Notes under the pieces: generated by a model
Database searches by the model: none
Told to the model about the DNA's origin: nothing
The model's input: the letters and a program-made list of their open reading frames with translations, nothing else
In this document: positions 50,767-60,055 of the stretch, in pieces
How the letters are laid out: each line of letters opens with the position of its first letter
Numbering within the stretch: the stretch's first letter is position 1
Assembly: GCA_964016885.1 (NCBI GenBank)
Contig: OZ024749.1
Location: 18,414,001 to 18,478,000 of the forward strand
DNA from: Eledone cirrhosa
Lineage: Eukaryota
Reading direction: 5' to 3'
Length of the DNA: 64,000 nucleotides
Made by a program: the position numbers and the translations under genes

Positions 50767-51320
50767 ATATATATATATATAAATATTTATATATATATAT
50801 ATTTATATATATATATATATATTTATATATATATATATATAAATATATATATATATATAAATATATATATATATATAAATATTTATATATATATATATTT
50901 ATATATATATATATTTATATATATATATATATTTTATATATATATATATATATTTATATATATATATATATTTATATATATATATATATATTTATATATA
51001 TTTATATATACATATATATATATATATTTATATATATATATATTTATATATATATATATTTATATATATATATATATATATATATATATATTTATATATT
51101 TATATATATATATATATATATATATAATATATATATATATATATATATATTTATATATTTATATATATATATATTTATATATATATATACATATATATAT
51201 ATTTATATATATATATATATTTATATATATATATATATATATATATATATATATATATATATATATATTTATATATATTTATATATACATATGTATATAT
51301 ATATTTATATATATATATAA
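50767..51320. repeat. (TA)n microsatellite, imperfect
   Basis: About 550 bp of TA dinucleotide with occasional ttt/aaa interruptions. Confidence 0.98.
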
Positions 51321-51610
51321 ACAAATAACGAAACGAAATTAAATTTCGTTTCGTTTGTAACTCACTTTTGTATGACTGACGCTCAAACAATTAAGTTAAA
51401 GATGTACATCCATATATGTATACTGAAATACTAGTATGTATATGAATACACACACGTATACATATGTAGATGTACCAAGCTTTTTCACTGGTCACTTTAC
51501 TGTGAGTGGCCAGCTACTCTGTATGTAAACACACAGACAAACCGGTTTTTAGAGTCATACTGGTTTTTGAGGAAACACCTTTCCTCCATTCTCCAGAAAG
51601 CCAGACAAGG

Positions 51611-51655
51611 AATATTGAACTAGTTTCGTTGTTGTTACAACTCATCAGCAATATT
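51611..51655 (-). ncRNA. Minimal type I hammerhead ribozyme (element A, copy 1)
   Basis: Reverse complement reads aatattg-ctgatga-gttgt-aaca-acaac-gaaa-ctag-tt-caatatt. Confidence 0.93.
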
Positions 51656-52077
51656 TACCTATCTTCCGGCCTCTCTAGAGAATCGTAAAAGCACATATCG
51701 CTATATGCTTTTTCTATGAAAATTAGTAGTGGGCAGACTAATTTGCATAGAGTGTGAGTAAGTACCGGTTCAACGGAGACGATAAAAACAAATAACGAAA
51801 CGAAATTAAATTTCGTTTCGTTTGTAACTCACTTTTGTATGACTGACGCTCAAACAATTAAGTTAAAGATGTACATCCATATATGTATACTGAAATACTA
51901 GTATGTATATGAATACACACACGTATACATATGTAGATGTACCAAGCTTTTTCACTGGTCACTTTACTGTGAGTGGCCAGCTACTCTGTATGTAAACACA
52001 CAGACAAACCGGTTTTTAGAGTCATACTGGTTTTTGAGGAAACACCTTTCCTCCATTCTCCAGAAAGCCAGACAAGG

Positions 52078-52122
52078 AATATTGAACTAGTTTCGTTGTT
52101 GTTACAACTCATCAGCAATATT
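52078..52122 (-). ncRNA. Minimal type I hammerhead ribozyme (element A, copy 2)
   Basis: Identical to copy 1, 467 bp away. Confidence 0.93.
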
Positions 52123-52341
52123 TACCTATCTTCCGGCCTCTCTAGAGAATCGTAAAAGCACATATCGCTATATGCTTTTTCTATGAAAATTAGTAGTGGG
52201 CAGACTACTGTGAGTAAGTACCGTTGAACCGGTACTTACTCACACTCTATGCAAATTAGTCTGCCCACTACTAATTTTCATAGAAAAAGCATATAGCGAT
52301 ATGTGCTTTTACGATTCTCTAGAGAGGCCGGAAGATAGGTA

Positions 52342-52386
52342 AATATTGCTGATGAGTTGTAACAACAACGAAACTAGTTCAATATT
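52342..52386 (+). ncRNA. Minimal type I hammerhead ribozyme (element A, copy 3)
   Basis: Stem I aatattg/caatatt (7 bp); core ctgatga 52349-52355; stem II gttgt/acaac; gaaa 52370-52373; palindromic minimal stem III aactagtt; GUU cleavage after 52379. Confidence 0.94.
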
Positions 52387-52808
52387 CCTTGTCTGGCTTT
52401 CTGGAGAATGGAGGAAAGGTGTTTCCTCAAAAACCAGTATGACTCTAAAAACCGGTTTGTCTGTGTGTTTACATACAGAGTAGCTGGCCACTCACAGTAA
52501 AGTGACCAGTGAAAAAGCTTGGTACATCTACATATGTATACGTGTGTGTATTCATATACATACTAGTATTTCAGTATACATATATGGATGTACATCTTTA
52601 ACTTAATTGTTTGAGCGTCAGTCATACAAAAGTGAGTTACAAACGAAACGAAATTTAATTTCGTTTCGTTATTTGTTTTTATCGTCTCCGTTGAACCGGT
52701 ACTTACTCACACTCTATGCAAATTAGTCTGCCCACTACTAATTTTCATAGAAAAAGCATATAGCGATATGTGCTTTTACGATTCTCTAGAGAGGCCGGAA
52801 GATAGGTA

Positions 52809-52853
52809 AATATTGCTGATGAGTTGTAACAACAACGAAACTAGTTCAATATT
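52809..52853 (+). ncRNA. Minimal type I hammerhead ribozyme (element A, copy 4)
   Basis: Identical motif, +467 bp. Confidence 0.93.
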
Positions 52854-53275
52854 CCTTGTCTGGCTTTCTGGAGAATGGAGGAAAGGTGTTTCCTCAAAAA
52901 CCAGTATGACTCTAAAAACCGGTTTGTCTGTGTGTTTACATACAGAGTAGCTGGCCACTCACAGTAAAGTGACCAGTGAAAAAGCTTGGTACATCTACAT
53001 ATGTATACGTGTGTGTATTCATATACATACTAGTATTTCAGTATACATATATGGATGTACATCTTTAACTTAATTGTTTGAGCGTCAGTCATACAAAAGT
53101 GAGTTACAAACGAAACGAAATTTAATTTCGTTTCGTTATTTGTTTTTATCGTCTCCGTTGAACCGGTACTTACTCACACTCTATGCAAATTAGTCTGCCC
53201 ACTACTAATTTTCATAGAAAAAGCATATAGCGATATGTGCTTTTACGATTCTCTAGAGAGGCCGGAAGATAGGTA

Positions 53276-53320
53276 AATATTGCTGATGAGTTGTAACAAC
53301 AACGAAACTAGTTCAATATT
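53276..53320 (+). ncRNA. Minimal type I hammerhead ribozyme (element A, copy 5)
   Basis: Identical motif, +467 bp. Confidence 0.93.
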
Positions 53321-56954: not shown

Positions 56955-56994
56955 CTAATAAGTGTTTTTACGGAGGTAAGTGTTTTACGACCAA

Positions 56995-57310
56995 ATATAA
57001 ATATTTATATATATATATATATATATATATATATATATATATATATATATATATATATATATATATATATATATATAAATATATATATATAAATATATAT
57101 ATATAAATATATATATATATATATATATATATATATATATATATATATATATAAATATAAATATATATATATATATATATATATATATATATATATATAT
57201 ATATATATATATATATATAAATATATATATATATAAATATATAAATATAAATATATATATATATATATATAAATATATATATATATATATATATATATAT
57301 ATATATGTGT
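56995..57310. repeat. (TA)n microsatellite
   Basis: About 310 bp TA repeat. Confidence 0.98.
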
Positions 57311-57435
57311 GTGAATATAGACATAGAATATTCGAAAATATTCTGTATGTTTATAATAAACATTTTGAAGACCTAATCGCTATAGAATAGAATACGTCAC
57401 GTATTACAATTAGATTCTCGATAAAAGCAAGGGAA

Positions 57436-57478
57436 GTAATCTACGCGTTTCATTCTTGTTAGAAATCTTCAGGACTAC
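57436..57478 (-). ncRNA. Minimal type I hammerhead ribozyme (element C; further minus-strand copies at 57746-57788, 58056-58098, 58366-58408, 58676-58718)
   Basis: Reverse complement reads gtagtc-ctgaaga-tttct-aaca-agaat-gaaa-cgcg-ta-gattac. Confidence 0.9.
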
Positions 57479-59031
57479 ATATCCAGTGCTTTTATCGAGA
57501 ATGACACAGCTAGAGACTTATAGAATACTTAGCTGTGTACAGGAACTGGTTTGAAAGAGCGGTTGCCGGTCCGGCAGAAATTAGAAATTGGAATAAATGC
57601 TCTGAAATAGCGATATATATGTGAATATAGACATAGAATATTCGAAAATATTCTGTATGTTTATAATAAACATTTTGAAAACCTAATCGCTATAGAATAG
57701 AATACGTCACGTATTACAATTAGATTCTCGATAAAAGCAAGGGAAGTAATCTACGCGTTTCATTCTTGTTAGAAATCTTCAGGACTACATATCCAGTGCT
57801 TTTATCGAGAATGACACAGCTAGAGACTTATAGAATACTTAGCTGTGTACAGGAACTGGTTTGAAAGAGCGGTTGCCGGTCCGGCAGAAATTAGAAATTG
57901 GAATAAATGCTCTGAAATAGCGATATATATGTGAATATAGACATAGAATATTCGAAAATATTCTGTATGTTTATAATAAACATTTTGAAGACCTAATCGC
58001 TATAGAATAGAATACGTCACGTATTACAATTAGATTCTCGATAAAAGCAAGGGAAGTAATCTACGCGTTTCATTCTTGTTAGAAATCTTCAGGACTACAT
58101 ATCCAGTGCTTTTATCGAGAATGACACAGCTAGAGACTTATAGAATACTTAGCTGTGTACAGGAACTGGTTTGAAAGAGCGGTTGCCGGTCCGGCAGAAA
58201 TTAGAAATTGGAATAAATGCTCTGAAATAGCGATATATATGTGAATATAGACATAGAATATTCGAAAATATTCTGTATGTTTATAATAAACATTTTGAAG
58301 ACCTAATCGCTATAGAATAGAATACGTCACGTATTACAATTAGATTCTCGATAAAAGCAAGGGAAGTAATCTACGCGTTTCATTCTTGTTAGAAATCTTC
58401 AGGACTACATATCCAGTGCTTTTATCGAGAATGACACAGCTAGAGACTTATAGAATACTTAGCTGTGTACAGGAACTGGTTTGAAAGAGCGGTTGCCGGT
58501 CCGGCAGAAATTAGAAATTGGAATAAATGCTCTGAAATAGCGATATATATGTGAATATAGACATAGAATATTCGAAAATATTCTGTATGTTTATAATAAA
58601 CATTTTGAAGACCTAATCGCTATAGAATAGAATACGTCACGTATTACAATTAGATTCTCGATAAAAGCAAGGGAAGTAATCTACGCGTTTCATTCTTGTT
58701 AGAAATCTTCAGGACTACATATCCAGTGCTTTTATCTAGAATGACACAGCTAGAGACTTATAGAATACTTAGCTGTGTACAGGAACTGGTTTGAAAGAGC
58801 GGTTGCCGGTCCGGCAGAAATTAGAAATTGGAATAAATGCTCTGAAATAGCGATATATATGTGAATATAGACATAGAATATTCGAAAATATTCTGTATGT
58901 TTATAATAAGCATTTATTCCAATTTCTAATTTCTGCCGGACCGGCAACCGCTCTTTCAAACCAGTTCCTGTACACAGCTAAGTATTCTATAAGTCTCTAG
59001 CTGTGTCATTCTCGATAAAAGCACTGGATAT

Positions 59032-59074
59032 GTAGTCCTGAAGATTTCTAACAAGAATGAAACGCGTAGATTAC
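59032..59074 (+). ncRNA. Minimal type I hammerhead ribozyme (element C, plus-strand copy 1)
   Basis: Stem I gtagtc/gattac; core ctgaaga 59038-59044; stem II ttct/agaa (U-U at 10.1/11.1); gaaa 59059-59062; palindromic stem III acgcgt; GUA cleavage after 59068. Stem I is extended by a perfect 16-bp helix 59008-59023/59081-59096. Confidence 0.92.
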
Positions 59075-59341
59075 TTCCCTTGCTTTTATCGAGAATCTAA
59101 TTGTAATACGTGACGTATTCTATTCTATAGCGATTAGGTCTTCAAAATGTTTATTATAAACATACAGAATATTTTCGAATATTCTATGTCTATATTCACA
59201 TATATATCGCTATTTCAGAGCATTTATTCCAATTTCTAATTTCTGCCGGACCGGCAACCGCTCTTTCAAACCAGTTCCTGTACACAGCTAAGTATTCTAT
59301 AAGTCTCTAGCTGTGTCATTCTCGATAAAAGCACTGGATAT

Positions 59342-59384
59342 GTAGTCCTGAAGATTTCTAACAAGAATGAAACGCGTAGATTAC
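59342..59384 (+). ncRNA. Minimal type I hammerhead ribozyme (element C, plus-strand copy 2)
   Basis: Identical motif, +310 bp. Confidence 0.91.
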
Positions 59385-59542
59385 TTCCCTTGCTTTTATC
59401 GAGAATCTAATTGTAATACGTGACGTATTCTATTCTATAGCGATTAGGTCTTTAAAATGTTTATTATAAACATACAGAATATTTTCGAATATTCTATGTC
59501 TATATTCACATATATATCGCTATTTCAGAGCATTTATTCCAA

Positions 59543-60055
59543 TATATATATATATATATATATATATATATATATATATATATATATATATATATAAATA
59601 TATATATATATATATATATATATATATATATATATATATATATATATATATATATATATATATATATATATATAATATATAGTAAGAAACACAGTAAAAC
59701 GTGTGTCTAAAATTACAAGGGTTGAAAAACCACATTTGTTTGAAATATTTAACCAAGAACCAGACAGAATGATAAAATAAAAATATATTATTATACAAAC
59801 CGCCTCAATAACCATTATATCTCTCGGACAGATTATACCTAATCTATATATAAATATATATATATATATATATAAATATATATATATATATATAATATAT
59901 ATATATATATATATATATATATATATATATATATATATATATATATATAAATATATATATATATATATATATATATATATATATATATATATAAATATAT
60001 ATATATATATATATATATATATATATATATATATATATATATATAAATATAAAAT
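59543..60055. repeat. Two (TA)n tracts (59543-59680, 59845-60055) separated by ~165 bp of unassigned sequence
   Basis: Direct reading of the sequence. Confidence 0.95.

What the first reader, a model, noticed from the sequence alone, without database searches (positions are those of the whole stretch)
50767..59680. Nest of unrelated hammerhead retrozyme-like elements sharing a TA-targeted, outward-facing tandem-plus-inverted insertion architecture
Seen: three non-coding families (467, ~571 and 310 bp) with no obvious similarity beyond the HHR core. Each reads (TA)n - tandem monomers with HHR on minus - inversion - monomers in plus sense - (TA)n, so both RNA-sense 3' ends face outward; the 522-bp satellite also ends 3'-first in TA. 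Established: minimal type I HHRs with palindromic stem III typify PLE pLTRs and metazoan non-LTR retrozymes, which form circular RNAs, and PLE insertions can carry inverted segments. Inference: both ends of a cut in (TA)n primed reverse transcription on a circular or multimeric RNA (rolling-circle-like), and the two cDNAs were joined head-to-head. That would be a TA-microsatellite-homing parasite system borrowing PLE enzymes.
Basis: partly seen in the sequence, partly recalled or inferred. Interest (0 to 1): 0.92.

Follow-up and report, generated by a model that had tools for sequence, protein, structure and literature searches.

The report
Retrozymes inserted by Penelope-type double priming
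Several unrelated non-coding repeats that carry hammerhead ribozymes have been copied many times into TA microsatellites as two back-to-back arms, each starting at a different fixed site, which is the footprint of Penelope-type retrotransposon enzymes and points to how these small RNA parasites spread.

Summary
The 467, 541 (571 in the window) and 310 nt repeats, and the 522 nt satellite unit, are hammerhead-bearing, ORF-less mobile families. In 91 fetched loci, 62 of 62 two-armed insertions are head-to-head with RNA 3' ends outward, and 127 of 148 such ends abut TA (background 11%). This is the Penelope-like-element (PLE) 'tail plus inverted copy' signature, also shown by a Neptune-type PLE here. 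Both arms share one haplotype in 18 of 18 informative loci. Best reading: non-autonomous retrozymes integrated by a PLE protein priming both DNA strands on one RNA (0.8); a monomer circle as template is about 0.55. Cleavage, circles and the partner PLE are unshown. The parts are known; this footprint on retrozymes was not found in eight literature searches. The scan noted a similar TA pattern for a tRNA-bearing repeat in another genome.

The parts
1..49877 (+). Family D satellite, 522-nt hammerhead-bearing unit, 96 units in the window; the array starts 10.8 kb left of the window (about 61.6 kb in all) with no inverted arm
49876..50130 (-). 255-bp inverted piece of D inside the array
50142..50770 (+). 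Last 1.2 units of D, ending at D start site 1 (61 nt after the ribozyme cut)
50767..51319 (.). (TA)n tract
51315..52207 (-). Family A left arm, 1.9 units, outer end at site 2 (303 nt after the cut); hammerhead cores 51648-51618 and 52115-52085
52208..52220 (.). 13-nt insert at the A inversion junction
52221..54009 (+). Family A right arm, 3.8 units, outer end at site 1 (229); cores at 52349, 52816, 53283, 53750
54333..54698 (.). Older inverted-repeat element of another abundant family (F) whose other copies carry a hammerhead core; lies between TA tracts
55072..55761 (-). Family B left arm, 1.3 units (family unit 541 nt), outer end at 142 (a minor third site); degenerate hammerhead 55310-55244
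55759..55898 (+). Family B right arm, 0.26 unit, outer end at site 2 (266); no ribozyme
56188..56990 (-). 5'-truncated Neptune/Nematis-type PLE: GIY-YIG C-terminus 56559-56954, hammerhead-bearing pLTR, 3' end in TA at its own site 155
   Evidence: (PF01541 E=0.0009, below cut-off)
56995..57306 (.). (TA)n tract
57303..58915 (-). Family C left arm, 5.2 units, outer end at site 1 (139); five hammerhead cores
58909..59543 (+). Family C right arm, 2.05 units, outer end at site 2 (165); cores at 59038 and 59348; 7-nt overlap at the junction
59542..59680 (.). (TA)n tract

Best explanation
A, B, C and D are non-autonomous retrozyme families that borrow the RT/GIY-YIG protein of Penelope-like elements. 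The protein, probably a dimer, binds one retrozyme RNA that offers two fixed internal start sites 26-118 nt apart. It cuts both strands of an AT-rich target, usually (TA)n, about 12-14 bp apart. One DNA 3' end primes at site 1 and the other at site 2, each using a few AT bases of homology. Both reverse transcriptions run the same way along the RNA and through the ribozyme junction without stopping, and end at random. The two cDNAs are joined head-to-head by microhomology. For A and C the template is more likely a ligated monomer circle (about 0.55) than an uncleaved multimer. Shown: the DNA footprint. Inferred: enzyme, dimer, order of steps, circle.
For: Polarity: 62 of 62 two-armed loci among 91 examined are minus-then-plus. 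Fixed ends: 137 of 148 outer ends lie within 8 nt of one of two sites (A 229/303, B 178/266, C 139/165, D 61/179). Family C has 1268 site-2/TA and 1198 site-1/TA junctions genome-wide, with 0 for the reversed control. Opposite-site rule: 47 of 47 classifiable fetched pairs; 63 of 63 outward pairs among the 197 C junctions listed on the first 222 Mb of contig C1; 6 of 7 B pairs on C1. TA: 127 of 148 ends against 11% background; 12- and 14-bp duplications at two non-TA targets (read by eye). An autonomous Neptune-type PLE here shows the same signature (ends 155/215, opposite in 7 of 9 two-armed copies). In vitro a PLE nicks AT-rich DNA, extends both strands, starts at two internal sites that define the tail, and is predicted to be a dimer (PMC11167929). 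One template: both arms share a substitution haplotype in 10 of 10 A loci (4 haplotypes) and 8 of 8 further C loci (4 haplotypes); each set has p about 1e-4 under random pairing. Neither site gives the longer arm (23 vs 32). For a circle: inner ends do not pile up at the ribozyme cut (1 of 22 A, 0 of 34 C). Young C arrays have 3 unit-specific substitutions in 31.5 kb while loci differ by changes fixed in every unit. 52 of 58 unit-specific changes are singletons. Fixed differences in A are 12 A/G against 2 C/T in RNA sense (p=0.007, post hoc).
Against: No autonomous partner was found: no pLTR match to A-D among 16 plus 20 PLE 3' ends, out of 10,596 GIY-YIG candidates. No RNA evidence was obtained. 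Same-site exceptions exist: L196 (old B subfamily) and Neptune L191; Neptune L187 is ambiguous. 11 of 58 fetched pairs had an end at neither site, and 71 of 197 C junctions were unpaired. Against a pure monomer circle: L041/42 has the same rare indel in one unit of each arm; L032 shares a CpG change in single units of both arms; 6 of 58 variants recur in several units; the 61.6-kb D satellite shows arrays can grow after insertion; in vitro the PLE used uncleaved RNA. Only 4 of 54 pairs have arms that cannot contain one another, against 8.5 expected (p=0.03), so fold-back may contribute. Shared haplotypes could reflect a uniform RNA pool at the time or gene conversion. L085, L146 and L149 look like hybrids of two RNAs. 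The A/G bias is absent in B and weak in D.
Confidence: 0.8

Rival explanations
1. Same PLE double priming, but the template is an uncleaved linear multimer transcribed from an existing array. The ribozyme is incidental, and long arms come partly from later tandem expansion.
For: [quoted passage not shown] 8 of 9 frog retrozymes tested did not cleave. Single-unit variants are shared by both arms in L041/42 and L032. Block duplications occur, and D grew to a satellite. B and D arms are mostly 1-2 units, like ordinary PLE partial tandems (selection-biased).
Against: No pile-up of inner ends at any phase (Rayleigh p 0.28 and 0.46). New changes appear fixed in all units of both arms rather than in single units, which needs a one-unit bottleneck. 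Young arrays of 7-15 units are almost uniform.
Confidence: 0.35
2. One priming event only: the cDNA folds back or switches template to copy itself, and the endonuclease trims the second arm at the other site.
For: Self-priming and endonuclease resolution were proposed for PLE inversions and tails. 50 of 54 pairs are geometrically compatible, more than expected (p=0.03). 4 of 55 junctions are palindromic.
Against: 4 pairs cannot be made by fold-back. Either site can be on the longer arm (23 vs 32), and 51 of 55 junctions join unrelated phases. Both strands are extended from RNA in vitro.
Confidence: 0.12
3. The repeats are decayed pLTRs or MITE-like palindromes spread at DNA level, or the inversions are assembly artefacts.
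For: Short pLTR-only palindromes exist here: the L035 element is a close match to a PLE 3' end over about 200 nt. Raw long reads were not examined.
Against: Over a thousand dispersed C loci with different junctions, unequal arms and strictly opposite ends. The site-303/TA junction recurs in 12 contigs of a public run, X1, which may be the assembly's own sample. No PLE ORF is joined in sense to a monomer in the loci scanned.
Confidence: 0.03

Closest known systems
Metazoan non-LTR retrozymes (Cervera & de la Pena 2020, PMC7229834; Li, Clavereau & Pollet 2026, bioRxiv 10.64898/2026.07.22.740005)
   Same: ORF-less, low-GC tandem repeats of 310-541 nt with one type I hammerhead per unit; dispersed and satellite-like copies; PLEs in the same genome; circle-to-multimer model and PLE partner already proposed.
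   Different: In the main texts searched, neither paper mentions inverted arms, fixed start sites or TA targeting (supplements not seen). Cleavage and circles are shown there, not here. Li et al. link monomers to pLTRs by sequence; no such link was found here.
Endonuclease-containing PLEs (Penelope/Poseidon, Neptune, Naiad; PMC8557442, PMC3846280, PMC11167929)
   Same: Partial tandems, an inverted 5'-truncated copy, a tail at one end, AT-rich or (TA)n targets, target duplications of about 10 bp, a hammerhead upstream of two internal RT start sites.
   Different: No ORF. Tails are 26-118 nt rather than 30-40. Both arms are multimers of up to 19 units. The near-absolute opposite-site pairing is stricter than the in vitro result that both strands use both sites.
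Non-autonomous Chlamys PLEs (MRC1, Chlamys-N4; PMC8557442, PMC9977147)
   Same: Non-coding, often multicopy head-to-tail, microsatellite-targeted, mobilised in trans.
   Different: The clade is reported to lack canonical hammerheads, targets (C)n, and members resemble their partner at the 3' end.
LINE-1 twin priming (search listing of PMC2837659; mechanism recalled)
   Same: Two target ends prime on one RNA and give an outward-facing inversion.
   Different: In L1 the second site is variable and the arms do not overlap (recalled); here both sites are fixed and the arms copy the same sequence many times.

Membership tests
Non-LTR retrozyme | Type I hammerhead in each tandem unit | tested here: met
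   A and C in every full unit, D in about half the satellite units; A matches HH9 at E=1.1e-6, below gathering; B is degenerate
Non-LTR retrozyme | Short, low-GC, non-coding unit without LTR or ORF | tested here: met
   310-541 nt, 34-40% GC; no PLE ORF within or joined to arrays in the loci scanned
Non-LTR retrozyme | Dispersed multicopy tandem insertions | tested here: met
Non-LTR retrozyme | Self-cleavage of the RNA | not testable with these tools
   motif only; local fold z-scores -0.1 to -1.5 are not significant
Non-LTR retrozyme | Expressed as monomer linear and circular RNA | tested here: inconclusive
   no RNA holder listed; contigs cannot tell a circle from tandem DNA; units fold better than shuffles as circles, z -2.1 to -10.4
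PLE-mobilised element | Inverted 5'-truncated copy head-to-head with the main copy | tested here: met
   62 of 62 two-armed loci
PLE-mobilised element | Two alternative 3' ends (tail at one end only) | tested here: met
   47 of 47 and 63 of 63; one exception in an old B copy
PLE-mobilised element | AT-rich or microsatellite target with target-site duplication | tested here: met
   127 of 148 ends in TA; 12 and 14 bp duplications at 2 non-TA sites of 15 loci inspected
PLE-mobilised element | 3' similarity to an autonomous PLE partner | tested here: inconclusive
   none among 36 PLE 3' ends, a small sample of the genome's families
Autonomous PLE | RT plus GIY-YIG ORF between pLTRs | tested here: not met
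   A-D have none; met by the separate Neptune-type family

The most novel reading that the evidence does not exclude
Each A or C insertion records twin rolling-circle reverse transcription. One self-cleaved, ligated monomer circle is held by a PLE dimer whose two active sites are committed to two different start sites, each primed by one strand of a TA cut. The two enzymes chase each other round the circle with strand displacement, so any RNA-stage change (possibly A-to-I editing) is stamped into every unit of both arms. This would be genomic evidence that animal circular RNAs are integration templates, and one such insertion can later seed a satellite.
Probability: 0.4. Interest if true: 0.82.

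Novelty: new variant of a known kind. Interest (0 to 1): 0.62.

Why it matters
How animal retrozymes are mobilised is open: the PLE link rests on co-occurrence, shared ribozymes and pLTR similarity. Here four unrelated families carry the PLE integration footprint itself, with hundreds to over a thousand mapped junctions for B and C. The opposite-site rule constrains the PLE mechanism (one RNA, two committed start sites, both strands primed). It also gives exact nucleotide predictions for an in vitro assay that already exists (PMC11167929). The data further tie a 61-kb satellite to a dispersed retrozyme family.

Tried and rejected
Rfam at gathering threshold: 0 hits. Expression: no RNA holder listed among 6 runs. 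The four runs laid are contigs of unknown kind; a single 503-nt contig spanning the A monomer in X5 and 'goes back 467' joints fit circle or tandem DNA alike. An RT-error signature: T>C 13 against A>G 2 among unit-specific changes (p=0.009) did not replicate in 8 new loci (0 against 1 among 3 events; the pooled p-values printed mix in fixed variants and are not used), so it is dropped. The idea that the two start sites are close in the folded RNA is not supported (graph distance no shorter than background in all 4 families). Partner search: no match beyond low-complexity AT alignments. The first hammerhead clustering collapsed into one group and was redone. The prediction that the D satellite has an inverted arm at its left end failed. 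A second apparent same-site B pair (L197) proved to be two copies of one opposite-site insertion. My first guess that 63000-64000 is a mitochondrial insert was dropped when it translated as a PLE-like fragment. A PDB search with the Neptune protein gave only I-TevI at E=0.29. Lunse et al. 2017 was not held. Earlier scan notes: none for this genome or sequence. The host was not identified; 'octopus' in two literature look-ups was a guess from recall.
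Full report
Setting. The window lies on contig C9 of a 3.0-Gb genome; the host was not identified. Bases 1-49877 are a 522-nt satellite. The finding covers the stretch of TA tracts and repeats that follows it.

Observation. 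The three arrays are as described, with the coordinates given under parts. A type I hammerhead descriptor finds the core in every full unit of A (467 nt) and C (310 nt) and in 50 places in the satellite D. A scores 37.7 bits against Rfam Hammerhead_HH9 (E=1.1e-6, below the cut-off of 52); C scores only E=6.9; nothing passes gathering. Stem III is a short palindrome in A and C and a longer one in D. B has a long irregular stem II and a hairpin stem III; its core and stem I are kept, with one compensatory pair, in 84%-identical relatives (by eye). B's family unit is 541 nt. The four units share no alignment longer than 32 nt at 75%. Folded as circles they beat 30 dinucleotide shuffles by z = -10.4 (A), -4.6 (C), -3.4 (B) and -2.1 (D); the ribozyme regions alone do not.

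Other copies. All four are dispersed families. I examined 91 loci (18 A, 21 C, 24 B, 28 D; the window's three plus top-scoring hits, so biased to long, similar copies). 62 have two arms, and all 62 are minus-then-plus in ribozyme sense; 29 are one-armed, some with a second arm too short to align. Of 148 visible 3' ends, 127 abut TA-rich sequence, against 11% of random 20-mers in 40 of the same loci. 137 lie within 8 nt of one of two family-specific sites: 229/303 (A), 178/266 (B, with a minor site at 142), 139/165 (C) and 61/179 (D), counted from the ribozyme cut. Among 58 pairs with both ends visible, 47 were classifiable and all 47 use opposite sites; 11 had an end elsewhere.

Unbiased check. 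Exact patterns for the two C junctions give 1268 and 1198 genome-wide matches, with 0 for the reversed controls. Of the 197 matches listed on the first 222 Mb of C1, 126 form 63 outward-facing pairs, all opposite-site (34 one way, 29 the other); 71 are unpaired. Mean span is 2974 nt, with a gamma shape of 2.3, close to two independent exponential arms. For B, 891 and 148 junctions were counted. On C1, six pairs are opposite-site and short (91-812 nt), and one old-subfamily copy uses site 266 twice. At two non-TA targets the flanks repeat 12 and 14 bp. Inversion junctions mostly show 1-8 nt of overlap.

Comparison with PLEs. This is the described PLE layout: partial tandems, an inverted 5'-truncated copy, a tail at one end and (TA)n targets (PMC8557442, passages; PMC3846280, passages). 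A purified Poseidon PLE nicks AT-rich DNA, extends both strands, starts at two internal sites that define the tail, is predicted to be dimeric, and uses mainly uncleaved RNA (PMC11167929, parts 1-2 of 4). The window itself holds a truncated PLE at 56188-56990. Its longer relatives have RT and C-terminal GIY-YIG domains with a CxxxxCxxC linker and a minimal hammerhead, which places them with Neptune/Nematis by the criteria. Their 3' ends fall mainly at 155 and 215, opposite in 7 of 9 two-armed copies (one same-site, one ambiguous). No PLE 3' end similar to A-D was found among 36 examined, out of 10,596 GIY-YIG candidates, so the partner is unknown.

One template or two. Both arms share a substitution haplotype in 10 of 10 two-armed A loci (4 haplotypes) and in 8 of 8 additional C loci (4 haplotypes; 7 chosen by length from the C1 pairs plus one incidental). 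Random pairing from the observed frequencies gives about 1e-4 for each set, though a pool that was uniform at the time, or gene conversion, would do the same. The 17 earlier two-armed C loci were selected for the window's haplotype and are uninformative. Site 1 gives the longer arm in 23 pairs and site 2 in 32, and 4 pairs cannot arise by fold-back. That is fewer than the 8.5 expected for independent arms (p=0.03, 54 pairs), so fold-back may make some inversions. Three loci look like hybrids of two RNAs.

Circle or multimer. Inner ends show no pile-up at the ribozyme cut (1 of 22 in A, 0 of 34 in C) or at any phase, so a cleaved linear monomer is not the template. Arrays are internally near-uniform (0.056% in A; 3 substitutions in 31.5 kb in young C loci), while loci differ by changes fixed in every unit of both arms. 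That requires repeated passage through a single unit. Fixed differences in A are 12 A/G against 2 C/T in RNA sense, whereas unit-specific transitions are 10 against 23 (Fisher p=0.001). This fits RNA-stage change such as A-to-I editing, or selection for G-U-tolerant stems; it is post hoc, and absent in B and weak in D. Against the circle: single-unit variants shared by both arms at two loci, 6 of 58 variants repeated in several units, and a 61.6-kb one-armed D array that clearly grew in place. No RNA data settle it. I put the circle at about 0.55 for A and C.

What is known. Retrozymes as circular RNAs, the circle-to-tandem-cDNA model and PLEs as likely partners are in PMC7229834 (passages and Discussion) and PMC7761336 (passages). 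Li et al. 2026 (parts 1-3 of 5) add co-occurrence and pLTR similarity. Term searches of those two primary main texts found no inversion, tail or microsatellite-target description; their supplements were not seen and may bear on this. Eight literature searches listed no paper whose title or abstract start reports this footprint on retrozymes; most subscription papers are not held. One earlier scan note describes a tRNA-bearing repeat with a PLE-type pattern in TA in another genome (not checked here).

Verdict. Real, genome-wide and mechanistically informative. Each ingredient is known and the link was predicted. The new part is the integration footprint on four unrelated ribozyme families, the near-absolute opposite-site rule and the single-haplotype multimeric arms. 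New variant of a known kind; interest 0.62.

Noticed in passing
window 63249-64000 (-), continuing in L195: Fragment of a Poseidon-like PLE ORF; beyond the window it has its own inverted arm, and its AT-rich 3' region with 139-nt repeats spans about 61750-62811.
   Followed up: partly
L237-L243, L045 (family C): All four substitutions that distinguish C haplotypes fall in the 45-nt ribozyme, and each looks structure-compatible: variable core position, loop, wobble, restored first pair of stem II (read by eye; chance 4e-4).
   Followed up: partly
L085:2310-3690, L146, L149:1405-3518: Possible hybrid insertions: a C arm joined to another family's element ending in TA; D joined to a diverged D; D joined to an internal Neptune segment. 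If they are single events they would name shared machinery.
   Followed up: partly
flanks of many loci: Several further repeat families with hammerhead cores occur beside TA tracts; one resembles C over 80 nt at 72%. The genome appears rich in such elements.
   Followed up: partly
runs X1, X4, X5, X6: Family A relatives, mostly 95% or more alike, occur under four organism labels in four studies; run kinds are not on record.
   Followed up: partly
L197 (G000:C5:53483300-53487000): The same B insertion with the same junction occurs twice in inverted orientation 1.9 kb apart.
   Followed up: no
window 49876-50142: An inverted 255-bp piece of D sits inside the satellite, with the plus strand resuming almost in register (442 to 446), like a template switch and return.
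   Followed up: no
window 50767-59680 TA tracts; L084, L118, L154: The two TA flanks of one insertion often share the same interruption pattern, as expected for insertion into a single tract followed by slippage (by eye).
   Followed up: partly
B versus C families: The family with the degenerate ribozyme (B) makes short insertions (6 pairs, 91-812 nt) while C, with a compact ribozyme, averages 2974 nt (63 pairs); ribozyme quality may set multimer length.
   Followed up: partly
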